A stretch of DNA of 40,901 bases, taken from UHGV virus genome UHGV-1629914; one strand, written 5' to 3'. Positions 2,001 to 38,603 of this stretch are shown in pieces (position 1 is the first letter of the stretch; the number at the start of each line of letters is the position of its first letter). The stretch comes from a virus. The position numbers and the translations under genes are program-made. The notes beneath the pieces were generated by a model. That model was given only the letters and a program-made list of their open reading frames with translations. It was not told the origin of the DNA and made no database searches.

Positions 2001-2420
2001 CTATTTGATTGCACGTTCAAACATTCTGCAGCACCAGTCTTTATACGCAGGATTGCCCTTGACATCTGCTCGGAATGCACAGTTGATAAGAGTCTTCTCT
2101 TCATCAACAAAGCATGCATAACGACAGTTTGCGCAACAACGAGCATCTTCTTGCTTTGTGCAAAATGCTGCACATGTCATGTCATCTTCTGTGTTGCGAA
2201 TTGTTTTTGTTGGCGTGTATTCATAAGTGCACTGACAAATGCCATTATGTTCACGATGAAAGAAGCAATTTTTGCAAACATGTGCAACTTCTTCAACTGG
2301 TGCTGATGCTGCATATGTTTGTTCTTGCTCTACTACAGGCTGTGTAGCAGCTTTAGTCTTTTTTGCCATTGTATCAAATGTTTGTATTTGTAAGTTGTTT
2401 TGATGCAAAATGCAAAACAA
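2001..2420 (-). CDS. Cys-rich putative zinc-binding protein (139 aa)
   Basis: ORF-track frame with many Cys/His (CKNC, CQC, CxxC pairs) beside the ligase gene. Confidence 0.5.
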   Translation of the reverse strand: MFCILHQNNLQIQTFDTMAKKTKAATQPVVEQEQTYAASAPVEEVAHVCKNCFFHREHNGICQCTYEYTPTKTIRNTEDDMTCAAFCTKQEDARCCANCRYACFVDEEKTLINCAFRADVKGNPAYKDWCCRMFERAIK

Positions 2421-2439
2421 TATAAAATTGTTTTGATAT

Positions 2440-5021: not shown

Positions 5022-5047
5022 TGAAGTTTATGTTATTATATAGTGAT

Positions 5048-5078
5048 ATTGTACAACAAAAATCTCAAATTTGCACAC
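5048..5078 (-). promoter_or_regulatory. class A promoter-like motif (GTGCAAAnTTTG ... TTGTACAAT on the coding strand)
   Basis: Motif lies about 27 nt upstream of the ATG at 5021; the same bipartite motif recurs at 18458, 20724, 20843, 28548 and 38529. Confidence 0.5.
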
Positions 5079-7980: not shown

Positions 7981-8376
7981 TTATCGATTCTTTGAAAATG
8001 AAACTTGTGTTGATTGCTGTGGTCGTATGTCAACAAACACTGAATCTACTGCATCAAACTTAAGCGTAGCAAGTGAATCAATTGTTTGTCTTGCTTTTTG
8101 CAAATTGCGTGCTTTGATGCCTGATACTGTTGCAGACTTTTCAAGCAGATATGCATCACGAGGCGTCCAGTAACGAGCTTGCCAACGCATATGCATAGAG
8201 TCGACAATCAGATTTTCTGCTGCAGCATCAATAATTGCTGCAGTTGATTGCTGAGTTGCATCAAGTCGTTGCTGTAACACCGCCAATTGTTTTGTGTGCT
8301 GTTGCTGTTGTTTGAACACTACGCTGATTGCGCCAAATAAAAGAAACCACGCAATAAAATGCAAAAATGACTTCAT
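7981..8376 (-). CDS. putative membrane/secreted protein (131 aa)
   Basis: N-terminal hydrophobic segment FLHFIAWFLLFGAISVVF; ATGA overlap with the clamp-loader stop. Confidence 0.5.
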   Translation of the reverse strand: MKSFLHFIAWFLLFGAISVVFKQQQQHTKQLAVLQQRLDATQQSTAAIIDAAAENLIVDSMHMRWQARYWTPRDAYLLEKSATVSGIKARNLQKARQTIDSLATLKFDAVDSVFVDIRPQQSTQVSFSKNR

Positions 8377-9347
8377 GATTGCTGCACGAATTTTGAGAGC
8401 TCGAATGATAATGCGAGCATTGTTATGAATTGGTCAATTGATTGTTTCGACTCTACGCCATATTTGTGAGCTGCAATGACAATGTCTCCAAGTCGTGCAA
8501 CAAAACCAGGCGTGTTCTTTGATAGCTTTGCATAGCACCAATTTGCAAAGTCAGTTGAGAGAGCATTGATGACTTCGGTTTCACGACCTTTGTATTGTGA
8601 CAGTGTTTGATAATGTGTTCTTGGGTCTTTGCAAGTCACAATAAATTCGTACAACTCTTCAAACTTTGCTGACATGCCCTTTGTGACATGCTCAAGTGTT
8701 ATGTGACGCTCGCCTTGATTAAAGACAAAGTAGCAAATGTTCAGAATTTTGCGGAAGTCTGGGTAGTTATCTTGAATGAGCTTGATGAGTGCCTCTTTTT
8801 CAATTGTGCATTCATTTTCTTTCAAGATATTGTAGACGCGAACCATACACTTCTTCATCAACTGTTCTGCAACATCATCAGAAAAGTCGAATGATAGCAT
8901 TTTGAGACGAGATTGAGCAATTGCATTTTCAATTCTGTCTGGATAATTACAAGTTGCAATGAAAAATGCAATGCCTGCAAACTCTTCAATGGTGCCTCGC
9001 AAAGCCATCTGACTTTGTGTCGATAGATAATCCATTTCATCAAGCAGCACAACCTTTACGCCACTTGACGACAATGACATATGCTGACAGAATTCTGAAA
9101 TTGTGTTGCGAACTGTGTCAATGCCAGAATTCTTTGAGCAGTTGATTTGCAAAATCGAACGTCTATCAGTCCACTTCAATGCCAATGCTCTTGCTGCGGT
9201 TGTTTTCCCACTTCCTGGTGCTCCTGCGAACAAATAATTTTGCGGTTGACCATTAAATGCTGCAGCATAATCATCAGGCACAATTAACTCTTCGACTTTT
9301 GTTGGTCGATATTTTTCAAGCCAAGTTCTATCTTTAAGGGATGCCAT
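8373..9347 (-). CDS. clamp loader ATPase (RFC-like AAA+)
   Basis: WLEKYRP box, Walker A GAPGSGKTT and Walker B VVLLDEMD. Start moved to the internal ATG (MASLKDR) because the ORF-track extension to 9380 overlaps the upstream conserved motif. Confidence 0.8.
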   Translation of the reverse strand: MASLKDRTWLEKYRPTKVEELIVPDDYAAAFNGQPQNYLFAGAPGSGKTTAARALALKWTDRRSILQINCSKNSGIDTVRNTISEFCQHMSLSSSGVKVVLLDEMDYLSTQSQMALRGTIEEFAGIAFFIATCNYPDRIENAIAQSRLKMLSFDFSDDVAEQLMKKCMVRVYNILKENECTIEKEALIKLIQDNYPDFRKILNICYFVFNQGERHITLEHVTKGMSAKFEELYEFIVTCKDPRTHYQTLSQYKGRETEVINALSTDFANWCYAKLSKNTPGFVARLGDIVIAAHKYGVESKQSIDQFITMLALSFELSKFVQQS

Positions 9348-9364
9348 TTGTTGTTTGTTATGAT

Positions 9365-9415
9365 ATGTGATATGATGCAAAATGCATATTCATATTGTAT
9401 ATGAATATGATACAA
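9365..9415 (-). promoter_or_regulatory. class B conserved upstream element (about 50 bp)
   Basis: Near-identical copy at 14415-14470 (ATGATGCAAAATGCATATTCA ... GAATATGATACAACA on plus); both lie just upstream of replication genes. Confidence 0.5.
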
Positions 9416-9423
9416 CAAACGTG

Positions 9424-10548
9424 TCATTTTTGCACAGCATGACCGCAATCGTACACAGGAACATAGCCTGCGTCAAGCATCTCTTGCGCATCTTGCCCGC
9501 AGTCTTCAATATGTTCTTTTGTCTTCAAATGACACCAGTGTTTGCGAATTGTTGACCTGTCATCTGACAGCTGCGGATTGAGTGCGAAGTCAGTTGAGTC
9601 TACTGGTTCACCTGCAAGATGCTTTCGAATGATGTCAATGATTTGGCTGTCGTCCATCCATTCGAATATCGTTATGCAAGTGTAGCCATGTTGAATAGCA
9701 AGTTGAGTTTTGTTAAAGTGATAGTCAAAAGGTCGCAACCAATTGCGTGATGATTGTTGACGCAAATATGAATATGAATATGCAGAATTATGAGAAAACG
9801 TCGGATTGATTTCAATTAGCACATTGTTAAAGTGCAAGTCGTATGAAAATCTGTCAAAATGCACATCATCATATGAAAAATCTATGCCAAGTGTATCAAG
9901 CAATTTATTATGCCATTGTATGTTAACATTTGATTTTGCTGCGCCTGCTTGTCTGCATTGTATTGTCATGCAATTCCATGGCACACCATATCGTTCTTCA
10001 CAAGTTTTAGACACGTCACTTGGCGCTCTAAACAAATGGCCGTATTTGTTCATTTTTGTAGTGACCATTTTATTGATATCGCCAAATGCATTGCCGTGCT
10101 TTTTAATTTTGCCGGCAACCATATTTGTAGTATTGCCATTAGACTTGCCATAGCGCGCTTCATTTGTTCGTCTACGTTTGTCTAAATCACCACAGCCATT
10201 GCCATAAATTTCAAGCTTTCGTTTTTGTGCAAGCTTAACGTTGCCAAATGCATTGCCGTATATGGCTTCTTTAGTTTTTAGCATTTTGTCTATGCCGCCA
10301 TGCCCATTGCCATATCGTGCATATTTTGTTGCAACGCCTTTTTGCACATGTTCATGCACTTGATTAGCATTTTCTACGCCATGTCTTTTTAATGTGCCAA
10401 TTTTGACATTGTAATGAATTTTAATACTACTATGTGATGTCTTGTATTTTGCATATCTCACAAAGGGTGTTTCTGCAAGCAATCTATCTCTTTCCTCTTC
10501 AAGCTCTTTAATTCGAGCTTCAAGAGCTTCTCCAGTTAGTGGTTCCAT
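9424..10548 (-). CDS. homing-endonuclease-like protein with seven tandem K/R-rich YG repeats
   Basis: 374 aa: N-terminal coiled-coil-like segment, about seven repeats of roughly 19 aa (K-x-YGN-x-G pattern), and a C-terminal region (LIEINPTFSH ... GYTCITIFEW) resembling the C-terminus of ORF 21877..22707. Confidence 0.45.
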   Translation of the reverse strand: MEPLTGEALEARIKELEEERDRLLAETPFVRYAKYKTSHSSIKIHYNVKIGTLKRHGVENANQVHEHVQKGVATKYARYGNGHGGIDKMLKTKEAIYGNAFGNVKLAQKRKLEIYGNGCGDLDKRRRTNEARYGKSNGNTTNMVAGKIKKHGNAFGDINKMVTTKMNKYGHLFRAPSDVSKTCEERYGVPWNCMTIQCRQAGAAKSNVNIQWHNKLLDTLGIDFSYDDVHFDRFSYDLHFNNVLIEINPTFSHNSAYSYSYLRQQSSRNWLRPFDYHFNKTQLAIQHGYTCITIFEWMDDSQIIDIIRKHLAGEPVDSTDFALNPQLSDDRSTIRKHWCHLKTKEHIEDCGQDAQEMLDAGYVPVYDCGHAVQK

Positions 10549-10567: not shown

Positions 10568-10614
10568 CAACAAAAATAGCGCAGCAGTATAATCTCACGA
10601 CTAACTGCTGCGCT
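10568..10614 (-). terminator. putative intrinsic terminator
   Basis: 10-bp perfect stem AGCGCAGCAG/CTGCTGCGCT (10578-10614) followed on the minus strand by a T-rich run. Confidence 0.4.
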
Positions 10615-10784: not shown

Positions 10785-13700
10785 TCAAAAGCCTCGATTC
10801 ATCAGTTCATCAGCAAGTCGTTCAAGTTCAGTAGCAGCTTTTTGTCGCTTGGCTTCTCTTTCTGCTTCAACATCTGCTTTGCTTACTGGTGATTCCAAGT
10901 CTTTTGCAGGTGCATCTTCAATAACAGTCAAATTGCTGTCATCAAACTTGTTGTCAATGTCAACTCGTTTGAATGATATGATGCCTGATGACACCTGAGC
11001 TTCTGCTTGTTGTTTGTCAAATACAAGACTACTAATCGTTGATTGCAGTTTTGCAGATGCCAGCAATCGTTCTGTGTTATCTGCAAAAATGTCATCAGTA
11101 AACAATACATGCAGCATTTGAGCAATCGAATCACGACTTCTGCTGTAGCCACTGTCAAATGCAGGCAACTGCTTAATTGCATAGATGTCGCCATCATGTA
11201 CAGTAATTGCATTGAACATGCGCCTTGCAATTGATGCAACCGAATCAAGTACGTCTGGTGATTGTGGTGTGTAGCCTCGTGAATCAAAGTATATGAGTGC
11301 AGAGTTCTTAACAATTTGGTCGACAACTTCTGATGCAATTGAAACTGCATCTTTGCTATTGTTGAAGACATCATTCAGCATATATGACACAATCTTGATG
11401 TTTGATTCATGCATTGTGCCACTTGAGCCCGCATCAAATATTGACACTGCGTCTTTGATTGATTTGAGTCTTGCAAGTCGATACATGTCTTTGTTGTCAA
11501 TGACATACATATCGATAGTCTTCATGATTGTGTCAAACAAGTAATGATGTGACAATGTTCGCAATGCATGTCGCCAATCATCAAATACTCGTCTGTCTTC
11601 TACAAGATATGTAAGCTTGCCATTTTTCTTGACAAGTTCAAATCTGTCTGATTCTTGAACTTGCTCTGCTGGCAAATTCATGATGACTTCGAATGTGGCT
11701 TGATTGACAAATGATGCAAACATTTTGCCAATCTTGCTGTTCTTTTCTTGACGGTACTCTGCTCGAGCTTCTTTTGCTGCATTGAGAACTTGAGCAATCA
11801 TCATGTCATCTGCAACAACATCTTGTACGACTTTGCATTCATAGCCATATGATGACAACGTGTTTTGAATGATGACAAGCTGAGTAGCCCATTGTCGCCA
11901 TTTCTGCTCAAACATATTGAGCTTGTATGCAGTCAAGTGAATCTTGATTTCACCTGTGTACGGGTCACGATAGAAATACGGTGCATTGAATGCCCATTCA
12001 AAGAAATCAAAGAGACTTCTTGAGTCATTGCGCTTTGTCTGCATTTGCAAAATGTCCCAGAATGACAGCTTTTCAACATTTGTCAATGTCAAGTCAAGCT
12101 CATCATATGCAGTAATGTTTCGTGGGTCGCCATTCGATTTTGTCATACTGAAATACACATATGACTGAATGGATATTTTGCGAAGCCGTGAGTTAAATTG
12201 TTCGATTTCTTGACCTGTAAATGCCTCGTCATAAATGACATCGAATTCGTAGCTGTCATTGATATCAATGCCAACTGACAAGTAATTTGTGCAAAACAGC
12301 AGTTCAATATCACCGATTGTACCAGATTCATTGATTGATTGAACAAAGTCATGCATTGCATTATCACGCTTGTAATACTTGACTTTCGGATTTCTGCCAA
12401 GCATCATTCGAACTGCGCCTACAATTGCATGAGTAAATGCATCGCCTTTGTTTGTTGGGAACAGAATTCGTTTGCCTGCTTTAATTGCTGTTGAGATATG
12501 TGATGCAAGTTTTGTAATCTTGTCGCCGTCATGTTTGCAGCAGACAAATCTGACACCTTTGTTGTAATTAAGCGGCTTGTCGCAGAATATGACAGTGTCA
12601 AAATGACAGAACATGTGTTCAGCTACAGGTGTGCCTGTCATCAAAATGACTTTTGTCTGCAACTTTGTTAAGTTGTCAATTACATTTGCAGGCACAACAT
12701 CACGATATGCAGACATTGTCAACAAGTGTGACTCGTCGACGACAACGTAGTCATATAAAATTGATACTTCCTCTGGGTCAGCTAATGTAAACTTATCGAA
12801 TGTCAAAGCTACATTGACATGCTTAGACAATTCAAGACCGCGCTGACCAAATGAGCAATACATGCCAAGGTCTGACATCTCAATCTTTGATTGCAAGATT
12901 GATGTGTATGGTTCAATCAGCATGACTCGTTTTCCATCACGAGTAAGCTGTTTGATGAATTCTGTCTTGCCTGAGCCTGGCCGTGCAATCAAGTAATTGA
13001 TGCCAGTTACAAATGCTTCTTCAAGTTCATGCTTGTATGTTGACAAGTATTCATTTTCTGCAAGTTTGAAGACATGCGTATGTCGAAGTTCAAAGTCTTT
13101 TTGCTGTGCAACTTTCGACATAATGTACTGGCTGATTGCATCTTCTGTGTTGTGTTCAGCAATCAGTTCATTGACAGTTACAGATGACTTGTTAGCAAAC
13201 TTGAATTTGAAGCCATGCTTTTCACGAAGTTCTTTGACAGATGACCACACACATGGACAAGTACCTGCAGCATTACGTTCAACTGCAGACCTGAATGAGT
13301 TTGCCCAGCTGTTATGCTCTGCATTGAACTTTGGGTTGCCTGAACACATTTGCAAGAACATTTGCAACACATGTTCATATTGACCACCTGTAGTTGACTT
13401 CAAATCATATAAAAATGCTAAAGTATATGCAAGTCTGTATCTACCAGTGTTATCGTAGTTTTGTGGAGTGATTGTGAGCATTGTGCCCTCTTCAATCATT
13501 GTGATGTCGTCACGTTGAGTAAAGACTTGCTCGCCGTCAGTCATTGCAGTCATATGAGACTTCGGTGCATAATCAAAACGACCACGAAGTCTATCAAACA
13601 TTGTCTTCAGTTTGTCGATGCAGAATTTTGCATCAACTGAAGCATAGATGCTAACATCAAACTCTGGTTGCTCAATGAATTGCGCGTTTTGATTGATGAT

Positions 13701-14384
13701 GACATCTTTATCTCGTGCAACAAACAGTGGCTGACTAATTTTGCAAACGGATGCATCGACTACTCGAGATTCAGACATTTGTCCAGACTTTTCAAGTCGT
13801 CTTGACAACGTGTTATTTACAGGATGCACTTCTCGAGCCATGTCATGATTGCCCTCTGATTCAAGCTGGTCACTCAGCAACACAAGGCATTTCCAAATGA
13901 CATACAGTTTTGCTTCATATGCATCAAGATATGTTTTCTTTGCTGCAGAAGCATTTTCAGATGACACAAATACAGCGTCTTCAGTTTGAATTGACAGAGG
14001 CTTTGAGATTGTGTAGACGTGCAAGCCTGAACCAGAAGTTGACTTAAGCACAGCAACACACCACGGATATTTGCAAAGCATTGCAGCCAAACGTGGTTTG
14101 ATGATTTCTACGAGTTCTTTTGAATGGAAGTCCAAATCGACTGGCTGCAAGCCTGACCAAGTCAAGTAGTCATGAACTTGCTGTTTTGGTCGAGCAAACA
14201 TTGTCGATTGCGACACAAAGGGACGATGTGCTTTATCTACTGTGTCAAGTGACTCATCATTTGCAACTTTCATGATGAGGTCATACAATGAAATTTGTTG
14301 CTTATTGACAGTGTCTTCTGTTTTACGAACACTGTCGCCCATCATGAACTTTATGCCACTGAGCAAATCTTTGACGTTTGACAT
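10785..14384 (-). CDS. putative DNA primase-helicase (AEP-like primase motif plus SF2-type helicase motifs)
   Basis: 1199 aa: N-terminal KSTSGSGLHVYT (primase motif-II-like), then Walker A IARPGSGKTE, Walker B VVVDESHLL and TGTP motif III. Confidence 0.55.
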   Translation of the reverse strand: MSNVKDLLSGIKFMMGDSVRKTEDTVNKQQISLYDLIMKVANDESLDTVDKAHRPFVSQSTMFARPKQQVHDYLTWSGLQPVDLDFHSKELVEIIKPRLAAMLCKYPWCVAVLKSTSGSGLHVYTISKPLSIQTEDAVFVSSENASAAKKTYLDAYEAKLYVIWKCLVLLSDQLESEGNHDMAREVHPVNNTLSRRLEKSGQMSESRVVDASVCKISQPLFVARDKDVIINQNAQFIEQPEFDVSIYASVDAKFCIDKLKTMFDRLRGRFDYAPKSHMTAMTDGEQVFTQRDDITMIEEGTMLTITPQNYDNTGRYRLAYTLAFLYDLKSTTGGQYEHVLQMFLQMCSGNPKFNAEHNSWANSFRSAVERNAAGTCPCVWSSVKELREKHGFKFKFANKSSVTVNELIAEHNTEDAISQYIMSKVAQQKDFELRHTHVFKLAENEYLSTYKHELEEAFVTGINYLIARPGSGKTEFIKQLTRDGKRVMLIEPYTSILQSKIEMSDLGMYCSFGQRGLELSKHVNVALTFDKFTLADPEEVSILYDYVVVDESHLLTMSAYRDVVPANVIDNLTKLQTKVILMTGTPVAEHMFCHFDTVIFCDKPLNYNKGVRFVCCKHDGDKITKLASHISTAIKAGKRILFPTNKGDAFTHAIVGAVRMMLGRNPKVKYYKRDNAMHDFVQSINESGTIGDIELLFCTNYLSVGIDINDSYEFDVIYDEAFTGQEIEQFNSRLRKISIQSYVYFSMTKSNGDPRNITAYDELDLTLTNVEKLSFWDILQMQTKRNDSRSLFDFFEWAFNAPYFYRDPYTGEIKIHLTAYKLNMFEQKWRQWATQLVIIQNTLSSYGYECKVVQDVVADDMMIAQVLNAAKEARAEYRQEKNSKIGKMFASFVNQATFEVIMNLPAEQVQESDRFELVKKNGKLTYLVEDRRVFDDWRHALRTLSHHYLFDTIMKTIDMYVIDNKDMYRLARLKSIKDAVSIFDAGSSGTMHESNIKIVSYMLNDVFNNSKDAVSIASEVVDQIVKNSALIYFDSRGYTPQSPDVLDSVASIARRMFNAITVHDGDIYAIKQLPAFDSGYSRSRDSIAQMLHVLFTDDIFADNTERLLASAKLQSTISSLVFDKQQAEAQVSSGIISFKRVDIDNKFDDSNLTVIEDAPAKDLESPVSKADVEAEREAKRQKAATELERLADELMNRGF

Positions 14385-14414: not shown

Positions 14415-14470
14415 TTATATTGAATATGATGCAAAATGCATATTCAAATTATATTGAATATGATACAACA
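14415..14470 (-). promoter_or_regulatory. class B conserved upstream element (second copy)
   Basis: Near-identical to 9365-9415; about 30 nt upstream of the ATG at 14384. Confidence 0.5.
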
Positions 14471-14486
14471 CTTGTGACATTTTTGC

Positions 14487-15128
14487 TTAGAATGCGACAC
14501 CGACATGTGCGCCAATCATAGCAGCTTTTGAGTCAACTTGCTTCATGCAGCCTGCATCAAGACCGATACGCCATTGTAAACTACCCTTGCCAAATTGACG
14601 AGTGTATGACAGCCAATACATATCAATTGACTGTTTGTCAAATGTGCCAAATGCATAGTGAAAGTCTACATTATTTCGTGGTGCATCATTGTCAATGACT
14701 TTGATTGTCGTAGTCTGCACTTCACGAATAACTGTGTCTGCTTTGAACATCAAAATGTCCCAATCACGTTGCTTGATTGTGTTTTGTGTGACATAGTCTT
14801 TTATTGCTATTTGCAGTTTGTCTGACTTCAATGTGTCTGTGTACTCATATTGTGCAAAGTAGTCATTGACATATTGCATGAGCTTTGTTGTATCGATGTC
14901 AACTACAAGTGTAGTGTCACGATACACTGGCACTGGCACAGTTTTGCCTGGCAATCTTATTGTGTCATGCTTAATGAACGTATCTACTTTGAATGTTGGT
15001 TCTGCATTTATAGCATCTTGATATGTTTGCCAGTCTTTTGGACTAACAAAATGCCAATCTTTGAAAATCATGACAGCAGCCAATACAATGACTGCTGTTA
15101 CGACTATGATTTTGAGTGTCTTCAACAT
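14487..15128 (-). CDS. membrane-anchored hypothetical protein (213 aa)
   Basis: N-terminal transmembrane segment LKIIVVTAVIVLAAVMIF. Confidence 0.5.
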   Translation of the reverse strand: MLKTLKIIVVTAVIVLAAVMIFKDWHFVSPKDWQTYQDAINAEPTFKVDTFIKHDTIRLPGKTVPVPVYRDTTLVVDIDTTKLMQYVNDYFAQYEYTDTLKSDKLQIAIKDYVTQNTIKQRDWDILMFKADTVIREVQTTTIKVIDNDAPRNNVDFHYAFGTFDKQSIDMYWLSYTRQFGKGSLQWRIGLDAGCMKQVDSKAAMIGAHVGVAF

Positions 15129-19664: not shown

Positions 19665-19908
19665 TTTGTGTATGTTCTTGATTTGCTTGTTCTGCTAAAT
19701 TGTCTATAAAAGCTTTGAGCAATGTAATGATTGTTGTTAGCAACTGAATTTGAAACAATACAATGCTAAACACTACAATTGCTACAATGCAAATTGAAAT
19801 GAAGAGCATATTGATGTCAAATTTGTTTGCTATCAATGTTTGCAGCCAAGTTATGACTGCAAACATTGAAATCAGTATGAATGTTTTGTGCTGTGATAAC
19901 GATTTCAT
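19642..19908 (-). CDS. small membrane protein (88 aa)
   Basis: Two hydrophobic segments (FILISMFAVITWL and ICIVAIVVFSIVLF); ATGA overlap at 19905-19908. Confidence 0.4.
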   Translation of the reverse strand: MKSLSQHKTFILISMFAVITWLQTLIANKFDINMLFISICIVAIVVFSIVLFQIQLLTTIITLLKAFIDNLAEQANQEHTQNDSGTAN

Positions 19909-20624
19909 TTGAAATGTATGGATGTTGGATTAGTGTCGGTCATTCTAACATGCCAGTCATAAATGAACCATCTTGCGAGGTCGTCATTTTTGATGTTATG
20001 AGTTTTGACATACTGTTCAGGACCTAATGACTCGCCGGTTTCAGGATTGACTGCGAAGTGGGATTCATCTACATTAGTAGACTTGTTTTTGATGTTTGAG
20101 ATTCGGAGCTTTGTATGCAGTTCAGTGCCGTCAGATTGTAGTGTTTTGACATAGAATGCAGTTTTTGTTGTTGCTTCATTGTCAAGCCATACTCCAAACT
20201 TAACTCCATGTGATTTCCAATATGCATTGTCAGCATCCCTGATTGCTTTGAAGTTCGGGTCATCAAGCCAAGGCTTGAAGACGTATACAGCATGTTGTTC
20301 TTTTCGAGTGATTTCGCCTTTGCCTTCACAAACTGTATGATACAGCCGCATTGCAGTTTCTTCATCAAAATAGTAAGTCAGATTGCCTGGCTTATCGAAT
20401 GTGCCAAGCTGTTGACCATCGATTACGAGAATGAATGTGTAATGCGAATCCTTGAAGAACTCTACTCGTACAGGTTGTTTGTGCTGTCTGCTGTTAAGCA
20501 GTCTGTCAATTGTAATGACTGCCCAGTTGGTGCCTGTCTTTGTTTTGTTGCCATGAAACAGTTCAGGATATGAAACTGTGTAAGGCAATGCTTTGTACTT
20601 CCAATGTTCATTAAAGCTTTTCAT
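19905..20624 (-). CDS. hypothetical protein (239 aa)
   Basis: ORF-track frame preceded by the repeat- and promoter-rich intergenic region 20625-20975. Confidence 0.55.
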   Translation of the reverse strand: MKSFNEHWKYKALPYTVSYPELFHGNKTKTGTNWAVITIDRLLNSRQHKQPVRVEFFKDSHYTFILVIDGQQLGTFDKPGNLTYYFDEETAMRLYHTVCEGKGEITRKEQHAVYVFKPWLDDPNFKAIRDADNAYWKSHGVKFGVWLDNEATTKTAFYVKTLQSDGTELHTKLRISNIKNKSTNVDESHFAVNPETGESLGPEQYVKTHNIKNDDLARWFIYDWHVRMTDTNPTSIHFK

Positions 20625-20646: not shown

Positions 20647-20700
20647 TATCAATTGCATTCTATATCAATTGCATTCTATATCAATTGCATCTTGTATCAA
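20647..20700. repeat. 16-bp direct tandem repeat, about 3.4 copies (TATCAATTGCATTCTA)
   Basis: Two exact copies, one variant copy and a partial, each containing the palindrome CAATTG, in the 5' leader of gene 19905..20624. Confidence 0.85.
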
Positions 20701-20723
20701 ATACATTATATTGATATATGATA

Positions 20724-20754
20724 ATTGTACTACAAAAATCCCAAATTTGCACAC
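20724..20754 (-). promoter_or_regulatory. class A promoter-like motif
   Basis: Coding strand reads GTGTGCAAATTTGGGATTTTTGTAGTACAAT. Confidence 0.45.
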
Positions 20755-20797
20755 TTTGATAATCAAAAGTGCAAACAAAATTCAAAGTTATATTGTA

Positions 20798-20829
20798 CAT
20801 CATAAAGTGCAAATTTGCACTTTATGATG
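20798..20829. repeat. 32-bp perfect palindrome CATCATAAAGTGCAAATTTGCACTTTATGATG
   Basis: Exact reverse-complement symmetry checked base by base; contains GTGCAAATTTGCAC, the core of the class A motif. Confidence 0.85.
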
Positions 20830-20842
20830 CTAAAATGTTGCC

Positions 20843-20871
20843 ATTGTACAACGCTTTGCGCTATTTTGCAC
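20843..20871 (-). promoter_or_regulatory. class A promoter-like motif (second copy in the same intergenic region)
   Basis: Coding strand reads GTGCAAAATAGCGCAAAGCGTTGTACAAT. Confidence 0.45.
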
Positions 20872-20975
20872 AAAGCAGCATGTTAAAATGTAACCATTTA
20901 TAACGCTGCAAATGTCTGCATAAAATAAGCAGCTTAGCAATCTAAGCTGCTGTCATTGTATGCATGCAGTCACTG

Positions 20976-22735: not shown

Positions 22736-22811
22736 GCAGCGCACCGAGATTCGAACTCGGACTCCCACCACTACAGTGGTACTCTACCGTTAAGCTACAC
22801 GTCTTTACAAG
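22736..22811 (-). other. tRNA-like element: clear T-arm plus 3' acceptor strand, 5' half does not fold canonically
   Basis: CCGAG-TTCGAAT-CTCGG then TGCGCTG-C at 22760-22736; no complementary 5' acceptor strand or cloverleaf found by hand upstream. Confidence 0.25.
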
Positions 22812-22889
22812 TGCCAAACACTGCAATATTTGACAAAAGTGCCAACATCAATCTACGTTCAATTGCAGTTGAATTAGTAGATATCGTTG

Positions 22890-22973
22890 AGCCAGTGGTC
22901 AGATTCGAACTGACGTGAGGCAATGCCTACCGGGTTACAAATCCGGTGGAGTCGACCGCTGTCCCACACTGGC
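22890..22973 (-). tRNA. class II (long variable arm) tRNA, anticodon ambiguous: loop UUUGUAA gives UGU by canonical register
   Basis: Perfect 7-bp acceptor GCCAGTG/CACTGGC, D-arm GGA-CAGCGGTCGAC-TCC, anticodon stem CCGGA/CCCGG (one A-C mismatch), variable arm AGGC-ATT-GCCT, T-arm GTCAG-TTCGAAT-CTGAC; 84 nt, no encoded CCA. Confidence 0.6.
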
Positions 22974-23044
22974 ATAAAGTCGTTGGGCCATTGCAACCCA
23001 AACCTATCATCTTTGCCTAACCAAAGATGCAAGCGCTCTCTTAC

Positions 23045-23116
23045 ACCACGACTTGTAGCCGAACTTGGAGTCGAACCAAGCTTTCGAGAATGAAAATCTC
23101 GCGTCCTAACCGATAG
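23045..23116 (-). tRNA. tRNA-Glu (anticodon UUC)
   Basis: D-arm GTCT-ATCGGTTA-GGAC, anticodon arm CGAGA-TTTTCAT-TCTCG, T-arm CTTGG-TTCGACT-CCAAG; acceptor GGCCGTT/TTCGGCT has two U-U mismatches. Confidence 0.6.
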
Positions 23117-23314
23117 ACGAAACGGCCAAGAGCAGTTCAAGTCTGCAGCATTGAACTGCGGAAGCAATGCCTGTACGGGCAGCAAATTGTGCAGATACAG
23201 CGACATTGCAAAATCACACCGAACCAAGTTTGTGCTTTCGAATATCAATTTGTATTGACCGCAGTCATTATACTTGGCACCAATGACTACTGATGTAAAA
23301 ATCGGTGTGTTACG

Positions 23315-23399
23315 CGGAGAGTAAGGGATTCGAACCCCTGGTACGTTGCCGTACAGTGGTTTTCAAGACCACCGCCATCGACCGCTCGGCCAACTCTCC
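23315..23399 (-). tRNA. tRNA-Ser (anticodon UGA), class II
   Basis: Perfect acceptor GGAGAGT/ACTCTCC, D-loop GAGCGGTCGAT, anticodon arm GTGGT-CTTGAAA-ACCAC, variable arm GTACG-GCAA-CGTAC, T-loop TTCGAAT. Confidence 0.8.
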
Positions 23400-23592
23400 G
23401 TAAAACATTGCATAAGCATTCTTATCTCTTGATGAGACCAAGTAGCTAATTTGGCAAGTTTGTTATATCTATCGTGACTGCTGCAGTTTGTTTGTCACTC
23501 AATACACAAAACTTTCGAACATTCATTGACAGCACTGCAATATCGCTTTTTAAGCTCAGCCATCAATGTATTTATGCAATGTATAACAATTC

Positions 23593-23674
23593 GTAGCCAA
23601 ACCGGGACTTGAACCCAGACTCCTAATGGAACAACATTTTGAGTGTTGCGTGTCTACCAATTCCACCATTTGGC
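23593..23674 (-). tRNA. tRNA-Leu (anticodon CAA), class II
   Basis: Acceptor GGCCAAA/TTTGGCT, anticodon arm CAACA-CTCAAAA-TGTTG, long variable arm, T-arm CTGGG-TTCAAGT-CCCGG. Confidence 0.8.
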
Positions 23675-23778
23675 CATTTGCAAATGCAAGCTGTTTCACA
23701 ACTGTTTGCATTTGCTGTCGTAAATTCGTATTGTTTAACTTCTAAAACAGAATTCATCTAATTAAAACCAGAGAATTG

Positions 23779-23851
23779 TAGGGAAGACCGGACTCGAACC
23801 GACGACCACTTGCTCCCAAAGCAAGCATGCTACCAACTGCACCACTTCCCT
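23779..23851 (-). tRNA. tRNA-Pro (anticodon UGG)
   Basis: Perfect acceptor AGGGAAG/CTTCCCT, D-loop AGTTGGTA, anticodon arm CTTGC-TTTGGGA-GCAAG, T-loop TTCGAGT. Confidence 0.8.
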
Positions 23852-23857
23852 AAATTG

Positions 23858-23929
23858 TTGAGACGGCAGAATTCGAATCTGCATTACAGGAACCAAAATC
23901 CTGGGTCTTAACCATTGGACGACGTCTCA
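23858..23929 (-). tRNA. tRNA-Gln (anticodon UUG)
   Basis: Perfect acceptor TGAGACG/CGTCTCA, anticodon arm CAGGA-TTTTGGT-TCCTG, T-arm GCAGA-TTCGAAT-TCTGC. Confidence 0.75.
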
Positions 23930-38557: not shown

Positions 38558-38603
38558 CAACTCAAAACAGCCAAGCAATGAATTGCTTGGCTGTTTTGAG
38601 TTG
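38558..38603. repeat. 21-bp perfect inverted repeat (stem-loop, 4-nt loop)
   Basis: CAACTCAAAACAGCCAAGCAA - TGAA - TTGCTTGGCTGTTTTGAGTTG; no adjacent U-run on either strand. Confidence 0.8.

What the first reader, a model, noticed from the sequence alone, without database searches (positions are those of the whole stretch)
9365..9415. Class B 50-bp conserved element upstream of the clamp loader and the primase-helicase
Two near-identical copies (9365-9415 and 14415-14470) contain TGCAAAATGCA and flanking GAATATGAT / ATCATATTC inverted segments. They lie immediately upstream of two replication genes and differ from the class A motif, suggesting a second, co-regulated promoter or operator class, perhaps for a different temporal stage.
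Basis: seen in the sequence. Interest (0 to 1): 0.5.

Follow-up and report, generated by a model that had tools for sequence, protein, structure and literature searches.

The report
Promoter carrying an optional hairpin repeat
The two look-alike sequences are ordinary copies of this gut phage's standard promoter that each also carry one 34-35-base hairpin repeat unit, which many near-identical strains lack, so they are not a separate class of control element.

Summary
Two ~75-nt near-identical segments (minus strand 9436-9363 and 14489-14412) lie directly upstream of the clamp-loader gene and of a 1199-aa primase/helicase-like gene.

They are not a second promoter class. Each starts with the phage's "class A" motif (GTGCAAA-N16-TAnnAT) at the canonical spacing. 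What makes them look different is a 35- or 34-nt block inserted just after the -10-like hexamer.

The block is a presence/absence polymorphism. All four combinations of the two sites occur among near-identical ~175-kb gut-phage genomes. The commonest genotype has neither block, and relatives at 79-57% protein identity have plain class A motifs at both sites.

The block is one unit of a small species-specific repeat family: an invariant core TGCAT(T/C)TTGCATCA flanked by complementary arms whose sequence differs by locus. The same family occurs in 0-3 copies downstream of the ligase gene (2437-2394) and as an array of 2 to at least 5 units elsewhere in the genome.

Most likely these are class A promoters with a dispensable, slippage- and recombination-prone leader hairpin unit that at most tunes expression. 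A selected RNA- or protein-binding role for the conserved core is not excluded. There are no transcription data.

The parts
9429..9435 (-). Copy 1: class A upstream box GTGCAAA (overlaps the stop codon TGA 9426-9424 of ORF 9424-10548)
9407..9412 (-). Copy 1: -10-like hexamer TATCAT, 16 nt after the box and preceded by TTGTTG
9377..9411 (-). Copy 1: 35-nt strain-variable block ATCATATTCATATACAATATGAATATGCATTTTGC. The boundary is ambiguous by up to 7 nt because ATCATAT is repeated.
9363..9409 (-). Copy 1 hairpin arms: X 9409-9399, loop 9398-9396, X' 9395-9385, core loop CATTTTGCAT 9384-9375, imperfect third arm 9374-9363
9373..9386 (-). Copy 1: invariant 14-nt core TGCATTTTGCATCA
8373..9347 (-). 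Clamp-loader large-subunit gene (ATG 9347-9345)
14482..14488 (-). Copy 2: degenerate upstream box AAGCAAA, directly after stop TAA 14489-14487 of ORF 14487-15128
14460..14465 (-). Copy 2: -10-like hexamer TATCAT, 16 nt after the box
14431..14464 (-). Copy 2: 34-nt strain-variable block ATCATATTCAATATAATTTGAATATGCATTTTGC, exactly missing in L005 and L082-L086
14412..14430 (-). Copy 2: second copy of the 19-nt direct repeat ATCATATTCAATATAATTT. The 23-nt repeat TTG(T/C)ATCATATTCAATATAATTT is spaced 34 nt.
14420..14462 (-). Copy 2 hairpin arms: X 14462-14454, loop 14453-14448, X' 14447-14439, core loop 14438-14429, X 14428-14420
14427..14440 (-). Copy 2: invariant 14-nt core TGCATTTTGCATCA
10785..14384 (-). 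1199-aa gene: SF2 helicase core with an N-terminal AEP-primase-like (BT4734-like) region
2394..2437 (-). Third member of the unit family: one 33-nt unit ATCAAAACAATTTTATATTGTTTTGCATTTTGC (2437-2405) plus trailing arm ATCAAAACAAC. It lies between the ligase stop (2442-2440) and the next ATG (2369-2367), core at 2414-2401. Relatives carry 0-3 units.
5033..5077 (-). Reference class A site (52.8 bits). Other class A sites, as 45-nt windows on the minus strand: 18487-18443, 20753-20709, 20821-20777, 20872-20828, 24039-23995, 28578-28534, 31061-31017, 38558-38514, 39301-39257.

Best explanation
Each 'class B' copy is a class A-type phage promoter (GTGCAAA box, 16-nt spacer, TAnnAT hexamer preceded by TTGTTG) that drives the gene just downstream. 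Each also carries one 34/35-nt repeat unit inserted right after the -10-like hexamer.

The insert begins with a copy of the sequence it displaces. The promoter core and first transcribed bases are therefore unchanged, and the transcript simply gains a 34-35-nt AU-rich hairpin in its 5' leader.

The unit belongs to a small species-specific family: an invariant core TGCAT(T/C)TTGCATCA between complementary arms that differ by locus. Unit number changes by slippage or recombination between its direct repeats. The unit probably moved between the two already similar promoters by gene conversion.

The unit is dispensable. Its effect on expression is most likely small (tuning) or nil.

Shown: anatomy, class A membership, indel polymorphism, the unit family and its copy-number variation. 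Inferred: that class A is a promoter, that the unit is transcribed, the origin mechanism, and the weak functional effect.
For: Class A membership and promoter character:
- The two copies share the box, the 16-nt spacing and the TTGTTG-TAnnAT part with 10 other sites. All strong hits are on the coding strand and none on the other strand.
- The typical distance from the hexamer to the ATG is 26-41 nt.
- One class A site precedes a 7-tRNA cluster.
- Orthologous sites in relatives at 79, 66 and 57% identity keep a plain class A-type motif at both genes.

The block is an indel:
- The helicase-site block is an exact 34-nt indel, 107 versus 73 nt from box to ATG. The clamp-loader-site block allele is 91 nt, against 59 and 56 nt for the two block-less alleles.
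- Without the block, the hexamer-to-ATG distances fall back near or into the class A range: 24-27 and 41 nt, against 59 and 75 nt with it.

Genotypes at helicase site / clamp-loader site:
- +/+ : window and L081.
- +/- : contig 149023.
- -/+ : contig 152288 and L086.
- -/- : L082-L085, the commonest clamp-loader allele, found in 56 index blocks.

Distribution:
- The block's 22-mer occurs once per ~175-kb IMG/VR genome.
- Only one further true copy was found in the metagenome scan.

The unit family:
- The same architecture with different arms lies downstream of the ligase gene in 0, 1, 2 or 3 units.
- It also forms an array of 2 to at least 5 units elsewhere.
- Arms are 85% paired against 32-53% in slid controls, and 5 of 9 pairs change on both sides.
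- A covariance model finds only these loci, at E <= 2.5e-6.

Other:
- The clamp-loader block allele carries the helicase-type -10 region TGTTGTATCATATTCA instead of TGTTGTACAAT, as expected for a conversion patch.
- A separate 16-nt leader repeat at 20653-20684 also varies in copy number between strains.
Against: - There are no transcription data, so neither the class A promoter nor the start site is demonstrated.
- Copy 2's box (AAGCAAA) is degenerate and its matrix score (6.8 bits) is borderline.
- A 14-nt core that is invariant across four loci with different but complementary arms, always in the sense orientation, is not what purely neutral slippage predicts. It suggests either selection on the core and on pairing, or a templated generating mechanism.
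- Within the block there is no variation among at least 6 clamp-loader-site haplotypes, while the flanks vary at 4 sites. The numbers are too small to test.
- The block allele at the clamp-loader site is frequent, found in at least 12 independent contigs, so it is not obviously deleterious.
Confidence: 0.62

Rival explanations
1. Functional RNA module. The unit is transcribed and folds into a hairpin with a variable basal stem, a 3' UCA bulge and an apical UGCA/UGCA helix with a U(U/C)U loop. A phage or host protein reads its conserved apical part. It would control mRNA stability, processing, antitermination or translation, with unit number setting the dose.
For: - The core is invariant while the stems differ and stay complementary.
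- The geometry is constant, with 10 nt between the arms at every locus.
- All four loci are in the sense orientation, in leader or intercistronic positions.
- With the presumed start site, the hairpin lies close to the 5' end of the transcript.
Against: - Predicted folds are weak, at -9.2 and -10.6 kcal/mol with z-scores of -1.5 and -1.8. They are weaker still from the presumed start site, with z-scores of -0.4 and -1.1.
- Copy 1's core-spanning stem is imperfect, with only 5 perfect pairs.
- The unit is absent from many strains and from all relatives at 79-41% identity.
- No Rfam family matches.
- Arm complementarity could come from the way the unit is generated, by inverted duplication, rather than from selection. 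Few independent stem types exist.
Confidence: 0.2
2. The element is a distinct promoter or operator class, with the inverted repeats forming an operator for a dimeric regulator that co-regulates replication genes at a specific stage.
For: - The two copies are shared by two replication genes.
- A palindrome overlaps the -10 and start region.
- One compensated difference keeps the palindrome intact between the copies.
Against: - The upstream half is class A.
- Half-site spacing differs between the copies, with 3-nt and 6-nt loops.
- Other loci use different arm sequences.
- The block is missing from the commonest genotype and from all more distant relatives, which express the same genes from plain class A motifs.
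- Only two copies exist per genome, or fewer.
Confidence: 0.08
3. DNA-level site for the factor that reads the class A box. On the opposite strand the core reads TGATGCAAAATGCA, which is one or two TGCAAA(A) boxes in inverted orientation. It could act as a decoy, a roadblock or a weak antisense promoter that dampens the forward promoter.
For: - ATGCAAA is an accepted box variant, seen at 38558.
- Many class A boxes are palindromic as TGCAAA...TTTGCA. One is a 32-nt perfect palindrome at 20829-20798.
- The plus strand at 9374-9418 scores 7.9 bits, just above the shuffle maximum of 6.8.
Against: - The antisense score is borderline, and copy 2 and the ligase units do not score at all.
- This view does not explain why the arms are complementary.
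- The unit is dispensable in many strains.
Confidence: 0.06
4. Miniature mobile element (REP- or MITE-like), inserted by a dedicated enzyme that copies target sequence into the arms.
For: - Presence or absence at defined sites, and a constant core with locus-specific arms.
- The TTTTGCA part of the class B core is not a local duplication, whereas at the ligase site it is one (TTTTGCA TTTTGCA). This hints that the core was imported.
Against: - Only 3-4 loci per ~175-kb genome.
- No copy outside this phage species in IMG/VR or the metagenome scan.
- The 'target duplication' would be 19 nt at one site and is imperfect at the other.
- No transposase was identified nearby.
Confidence: 0.04

Closest known systems
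PeSLs (promoter-early stem-loops) of T4-type phages (Arbiol et al. 2010, PMC2839356; PMC4122927)
   Same: Both are composite intergenic cassettes of a repeated promoter plus a stem-loop. One PeSL subclass has the stem-loop downstream of the -10. PeSLs sit next to variable genes and serve as short homology patches for recombination between copies. Here the promoter alleles are mosaic, the ORF between the helicase and clamp-loader genes is variable, and one promoter appears to have been converted by the other.
   Different: PeSL promoters are sigma70-type, and their GC-rich stem-loops are effective terminators. Here the promoter motif is GTGCAAA-N16-TAnnAT and was not picked up by a sigma70 scan. 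The hairpin is AU-rich and weak with no proper U-tract. The hairpin part itself is a 0/1 to at least 5-copy tandem unit with an invariant core.
Copy-number-variable tandem repeats in promoters and leaders (slipped-strand 'contingency' repeats; own knowledge)
   Same: Both are direct repeats whose unit number differs between near-identical strains, located between the promoter and the start codon. The length change shifts leader length.
   Different: Classical contingency repeats have 1-8-nt units that change promoter spacing or reading frame. Here the units are 28-35 nt, contain a hairpin, and leave the box-to-hexamer spacing untouched.
REP/BIME palindromic units of bacterial chromosomes (own knowledge)
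   Same: Both are ~30-nt palindromic intergenic units that occur singly or in short arrays, are transcribed with neighbouring genes, and vary in copy number.
   Different: REPs are present in tens to hundreds of copies with a conserved stem sequence and alternating orientation, and are linked to RAYT transposases. Here there are 3-4 loci, the stems are locus-specific, orientation is head-to-tail, and the host replicon is a phage.
Lambda nut sites (boxB hairpin downstream of pL and pR; own knowledge)
   Same: Both involve two copies per genome, each just downstream of a promoter, with a hairpin whose apical part is conserved.
   Different: nut sites are essential and conserved among lambdoid relatives, and work with boxA and the N protein. 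This unit is absent from many strains and all relatives, and no boxA or N analogue was identified.
T4 RegA translational operators (for example gene 44; PMC3014915)
   Same: Both are post-transcriptional sites on mRNAs of replication genes, including the clamp loader.
   Different: RegA sites overlap or abut the AUG and lack secondary structure. This unit ends 15-35 nt upstream of the AUG and is defined by a hairpin.

Membership tests
Class A promoter motif of this phage | Upstream box GTGCAAA | tested here: met
   Copy 1 has GTGCAAA at 9435-9429. Copy 2 has the degenerate AAGCAAA at 14488-14482. Matrix scores are 32.0 and 6.8 bits against a shuffle maximum of 6.8, so copy 2 is borderline.
Class A promoter motif of this phage | Invariant 16-nt spacer to a TAnnAT hexamer preceded by TTGT(T/A)G | tested here: met
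   All 12 sites, including both copies, have a 16-nt spacer. Both copies have TGTTG-TATCAT.
Class A promoter motif of this phage | Coding-strand orientation, 26-41 nt upstream of a start codon | tested here: inconclusive
   Orientation is met. The distance is 59 and 75 nt with the block, but 24-27 and 41 nt in block-less alleles.
Class A promoter motif of this phage | Motif kept at orthologous sites in diverged relatives | tested here: met
   L076, L077 and L079 (79, 66 and 57% identity) have class A-type motifs upstream of both genes.
Class A promoter motif of this phage | Transcription actually starts there | not testable with these tools
   No RNA data. Indirect support only: one site precedes the tRNA cluster.
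   The upstream half is class A. The distinct part is a 34/35-nt insert.
   Absent from the commonest genotype and from all relatives at 79-41% identity.
   The 22-mer occurs once per ~175-kb genome in two IMG/VR genomes and twice in the window.
PeSL-type promoter/stem-loop cassette | Sigma70-type early promoter | tested here: not met
   The sigma70 consensus scan does not list these sites and finds no excess, 26 against 22 expected.
PeSL-type promoter/stem-loop cassette | Stable stem-loop that acts as a terminator | tested here: inconclusive
   The hairpins are present but AU-rich, at -9 to -10.6 kcal/mol with z about -1.5 to -1.8. None is picked up by the terminator scan. Terminator function is not testable.
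PeSL-type promoter/stem-loop cassette | Association with variable genes and recombination between copies | tested here: met
   The ORF between the helicase and clamp-loader genes varies (343-455 aa) and is absent in L076 and L079. Promoter alleles are mosaic. The array locus borders different downstream genes.
REP/BIME-like palindromic units | High copy number with a conserved stem sequence | tested here: not met
   There are 3-4 loci per genome, and stems differ by locus.
REP/BIME-like palindromic units | Cognate RAYT/HUH transposase | not tested
   Only about 41 kb plus fragments of the ~175-kb genome could be read. None was seen among the proteins scanned.
Lambda nut-type RNA site | Hairpin with a conserved apical part downstream of a promoter | tested here: inconclusive
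   The core is invariant and the stems covary, but there are few independent stems and the folds are weak.
Lambda nut-type RNA site | Indispensable and conserved among relatives | tested here: not met
   Presence/absence polymorphism, and absent in relatives.
T4 RegA-type translational operator | Unstructured A/U-rich site that overlaps or abuts the AUG | tested here: not met
   The unit ends 15 nt (copy 1) and 35 nt (copy 2) before the ATG and is hairpin-based.
Variable-number tandem repeat in a leader | Head-to-tail units whose number differs between near-identical genomes | tested here: met
   0/1 unit at the helicase and clamp-loader sites, 0-3 at the ligase site, and 2 to at least 5 in the array.

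The most novel reading that the evidence does not exclude
The 28-35-nt units are a previously undescribed kind of phage cis-module. A constant 14-nt apical core (TGCAT(T/C)TTGCATCA) sits on a stem built from, or co-evolving with, local sequence. A dedicated mechanism would add and remove the units in promoter leaders and intercistronic spacers, and a phage RNA- or DNA-binding factor would read them. Strains would then tune the dosage of replication proteins by unit number.
Probability: 0.15. Interest if true: 0.55.

Novelty: new variant of a known kind. Interest (0 to 1): 0.3.

Why it matters
- It removes a false lead. The window shows one promoter-like family, not two temporal classes, so a regulatory map of this uncultured ~175-kb gut phage should not split replication genes into a separate regulon on this evidence.
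- It documents, in natural gut populations, fast turnover of promoter-proximal sequence. Examples are unit gain and loss, allele mosaicism and likely promoter-to-promoter conversion, in a phage whose relatives infect Bacteroidota. This is comparable to the PeSL-mediated shuffling known from T4-type coliphages.
- The invariant core with locus-specific complementary arms is a compact, testable candidate for a protein-recognised hairpin.
- The unit is a practical strain marker. It is also a cause of assembly breaks: several contigs end inside it.

Tried and rejected
- **Known RNA family:** Rfam at gathering thresholds finds only 7 tRNAs in the window.
- **Stable RNA structure:** folds are not significantly better than shuffles.
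- **Intrinsic terminator or sigma70 promoter:** the generic scans do not flag the element and show no enrichment.
- **Widely mobile element:** of 68 metagenome and 35 IMG/VR seed hits, all but those from this phage species lose similarity outside the seed and lack long arms.
- **Second tandem class A promoter made by the duplicated -10 segment:** no matrix hit above 3.8 bits inside the block on the coding strand.
- **Leader peptide:** copy 1 could encode MNMHFASYHIS* and copy 2 (L)NMHFASYSI*. The ligase-site and array units have no ATG, so this is not a family feature.
- **RegA-like operator:** wrong position and wrong structure.
- **Homologous units in relatives at 79-41% identity:** the best covariance-model hit has E = 0.33.
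- **A binding protein encoded next to the array:** neighbouring ORFs have no Pfam hit.
- **Close cultured relative:** megablast of 8 kb against phage genomes found nothing. The best protein hit is Chryseobacterium phage MA9V-1 at 41%.
- **Sequence identification of the 1199-aa protein:** no direct Pfam, PHROG or PDB hit, only weak family-level hits in homologues.

Full report
**Observation**

All genes around the finding are on the minus strand. Read in that orientation, the two segments align over about 75 nt at about 85% identity. The 23-mer TGAATATGCATTTTGCATCATAT occurs exactly twice in the window, with none expected in 100 shuffles.

Copy 1 lies between the stop codon of ORF 9424-10548 and the ATG (9347-9345) of a clamp-loader gene (Pfam AAA and Gp44_lid; PHROG clamp loader, 2e-59). 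Copy 2 lies between ORF 14487-15128 and the ATG (14384-14382) of a 1199-aa protein.

The 1199-aa protein has no direct Pfam, PHROG or PDB match. Its family shows a Walker A/DExH core, DEAD/ResIII hits in 5 of 11 homologues, and a BT4734-like N-terminal (AEP-primase-type) hit in 3 of 11. 'Primase-helicase' is therefore plausible but only weakly supported.

Its nearest cultured relatives are Chryseobacterium phage MA9V-1 (41% identity) and Tenacibaculum jumbo phages. Close relatives come from gut metagenomes as ~175-181-kb contigs.

**Class B contains class A**

A repeat search showed that both copies are members of the window's main repeat family. On the coding strand that family reads GTGCAAA, then 16 nt, then TAcAAT, with TTGT(T/A)G before the hexamer.

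A weight matrix built from nine sites, excluding the two copies, gave these results:
- It finds 11 strong sites (at least 32 bits) on the minus strand and none on the plus strand. The shuffle maximum is 6.8 bits.
- Copy 1 scores 32.0 bits.
- Copy 2 scores 6.8 bits, because its box is AAGCAAA.

The box-to-hexamer spacing is 16 nt at all 12 sites. Sites with a single downstream gene lie 26-41 nt before the ATG, and one site lies just upstream of a cluster of seven tRNA genes. Orthologous intergenic regions in relatives at 79, 66 and 57% helicase identity have the same type of motif before both genes.

I take class A to be the phage's promoter for this gene block. That is an inference from position, strand bias, fixed spacing and conservation; no transcript data exist. 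A generic sigma70 scan does not pick these sites up. Start codons lack Shine-Dalgarno sequences, which fits a Bacteroidota host (inference).

**What makes class B look different is an indel**

At the helicase site:
- Contig IMGVR_UViG_3300045988_152288 (L005) and five ENA genomes (L082-L086) lack exactly 34 nt, leaving ...GTGTTGTATCATATTCAATATAATTTTGACC....
- The window and contig ..._149023 (L004/L007) have the 34 nt.
- The box-to-ATG distance is 107 nt with the block and 73 nt without it.

At the clamp-loader site there are three alleles:
- Allele a is a fully canonical class A site (GTGCAAAAATGACATTATTGTTGTACAAT..., 59 nt to the ATG). It occurs in L082-L085 and L087. Its protein allele is the commonest, found in 56 index blocks.
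- Allele b is a second plain allele (56 nt). It occurs in 149023, L130 and L132.
- Allele c is the block allele (91 nt). It occurs in the window/L081, 152288, L074, L086, L088, L122-L129 and L131.

All four combinations of the two sites occur. Relatives at 79-57% identity have no block at either site. The block's 22-mer occurs once in each of the two ~175-kb IMG/VR genomes. An 18-mer scan of metagenomes gave only one additional true copy (L074); the other 67 hits lose similarity outside the seed.

The block is therefore recent, confined to one phage species, dispensable, and limited to these two sites.

**Anatomy of the block**

On the coding strand the order is: arm X, a short loop, arm X', then CATTTTGC, then arm X again.
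- Copy 1: X is CATATTCATAT, the loop is ACA, and X' is ATATGAATATG.
- Copy 2: X is CATATTCAA, the loop is TATAAT, and X' is TTGAATATG.
- The final arm is perfect in copy 2 and imperfect in copy 1.

The insert starts with a copy of the sequence it displaces, a 19-23-nt direct repeat in copy 2. The promoter core and the first transcribed bases are therefore unchanged, and the leader is simply lengthened by 34-35 nt. The duplicated hexamer region has no box at 16 nt and does not score as a second class A site.

The three differences between the copies (one inserted T, T>C and T>A) all lie inside the X/X' palindrome. They lengthen it from 9 bp with a 6-nt loop to 11 bp with a 3-nt loop. This is the signature expected from quasipalindrome template-switch mutation (PMC7202029, PMC3820800). 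It could also reflect selection for pairing.

The clamp-loader block allele carries the helicase-type TGTTGTATCATATTCA in place of the TGTTGTACAAT or AGTAGTATTAT of the plain alleles. This suggests a conversion patch copied from the helicase promoter (inference).

**The block is one unit of a small repeat family**

A weak third match at 2414-2401 has the same 14-nt core TGCATTTTGCATCA, flanked by different perfect arms (TTGTTTTG/CAAAACAA). In other strains this unit, which lies between the ligase gene and the next gene, is present 0 (L122), 2 (L082-L084, L121) or 3 times (L086, L115, L130), against once in the window.

A further locus outside the window is a head-to-tail array of the same kind of unit directly upstream of a gene. 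It has at least 5 units in 152288 and 2 in 149023, and the downstream gene differs between the two genomes.

Among all seed hits, only this species has 8-10-bp arms around the core. Over 12 distinct unit variants the arms are 85% paired, against 32-53% when the partner is slid, and 5 of 9 pairs change on both sides. The independent stem types are few.

A covariance model of the unit finds three sites in the window (2393-2422, 9365-9394 and 14419-14448, all on the minus strand) plus the known sites in close relatives, all at E <= 2.5e-6. Nothing is significant in relatives at 79-41% identity. All loci are in the sense orientation relative to the downstream gene.

**Function**

RNA folds of the leaders are weak, at -9.2 and -10.6 kcal/mol with z-scores of -1.5 and -1.8. 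From the presumed start site the z-scores are -0.4 and -1.1. No Rfam family matches. The hairpins are not terminator-like.

A possible leader peptide is not shared by the other loci. The position and structure do not fit RegA-type operators.

On the opposite strand the core reads TGATGCAAAATGCA, which resembles inverted class A boxes. The plus strand at 9374-9418 scores 7.9 bits, just above the noise level. This supports no more than a weak decoy or antisense-promoter idea.

Many strains lack the unit, and all relatives do. I therefore judge a strong regulatory role unlikely. The most probable picture is a class A promoter with a slippage- and recombination-prone leader hairpin unit of small or no effect.

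The invariant core with locus-specific complementary arms is the one feature this does not explain well. It keeps a functional-module reading alive at about 0.2-0.3 in total.

**Comparison with known systems**

The nearest described analogue is the PeSL cassette of T4-type phages. These are repeated promoter plus stem-loop modules next to variable genes that recombine with one another (PMC2839356).

The similarities are the composite architecture, the association with variable genes and the exchange between promoters. The ORF between the helicase and clamp-loader genes ranges from 343 to 455 aa among strains and is missing in L076 and L079.

The differences are the promoter type, the weak AU-rich hairpin with no terminator features, and the tandem-unit behaviour with an invariant core. 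REP/BIME elements, lambda nut sites and contingency repeats each share some features and fail others; the membership table gives the details.

**Verdict**

The interpretation as a second promoter or operator class is not supported beyond 'promoter-associated'. The finding is a new variant of a known kind, a promoter cassette with a variable hairpin repeat. Interest is modest.

Noticed in passing
window 20653-20700 (+), i.e. the leader of gene 19905-20624 (-): A 16-nt tandem repeat (TTGATATAGAATGCAA on the coding strand) lies between class A site 20753-20709 and the ATG at 20624. The window has about 3 copies and contig 149023 (L007) has about 6. This is another strain-variable leader repeat.
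   Followed up: partly
window 20709-20872 (-): Three class A sites lie in tandem within 165 nt of one large intergenic region. The middle one sits in a perfect 32-nt palindrome, CATCATAAAGTGCAAATTTGCACTTTATGATG (20829-20798). Many class A boxes are palindromic (TGCAAA...TTTGCA), which suggests a dimeric factor binds the box.
   Followed up: partly
window 22737-23929 (-): A cluster of seven tRNA genes lies immediately downstream of class A site 24039-23995.
   Followed up: partly
window 9424-10548 (-): The ORF between the helicase and clamp-loader genes (374 aa, faint DUF7487) is highly variable. Near-identical strains have alleles of 343, 396 and 455 aa. It is replaced by three small ORFs in L077 and is absent in L076 and L079. 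Its last codons overlap the class A box.
   Followed up: partly
L116 616-932 (contig IMGVR_UViG_3300045988_152288, positions 1-2800); L133 1340-1520: The unit array lies in a ~300-nt stretch bounded by an inverted C9...G9 pair (CCCCCCCCCAGTT / AACTGGGGGGGGG) in 152288. In 149023 the downstream part, including the G-run and the next gene, is different. In 152288 the array is within 1 kb of the contig end.
   Followed up: partly
window 10579-10613 (-): A GC-rich hairpin, GCGCAGCAG...CTGCTGCGC, is followed by TATTTTTGTTGATATTTAC just before the ATG at 10548. This terminator-plus-TTGTTG-TAnnnT arrangement resembles the intergenic regions of Chryseobacterium phage MA9V-1 (hairpin, T-run, TTGTTGTATAAT). 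It may be a second promoter type without the GTGCAAA box.
   Followed up: no
L122, L123, L126-L129 (Logan contigs): Several short-read contigs start 53-70 nt before the clamp-loader ATG, inside the block. This is consistent with the dispersed repeat breaking assemblies.
   Followed up: no
window-wide start codons (e.g. 9347, 14384, 5021, 18427, 28518): Start codons are preceded by A/C-rich tracts (AACAAACAACAAATG, CTACAATG) with no Shine-Dalgarno sequence. This fits a Bacteroidota host.
   Followed up: no
L079 5800-5870: In the 57% relative, a pair of direct repeats with the arm-core-arm look (CTTGTTTTGATGCATTTAGATGAAACAAG) lies upstream of the helicase promoter on the opposite strand. The covariance-model E-value is 0.33. 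It may be a distant cousin of the unit or a chance match.
   Followed up: partly
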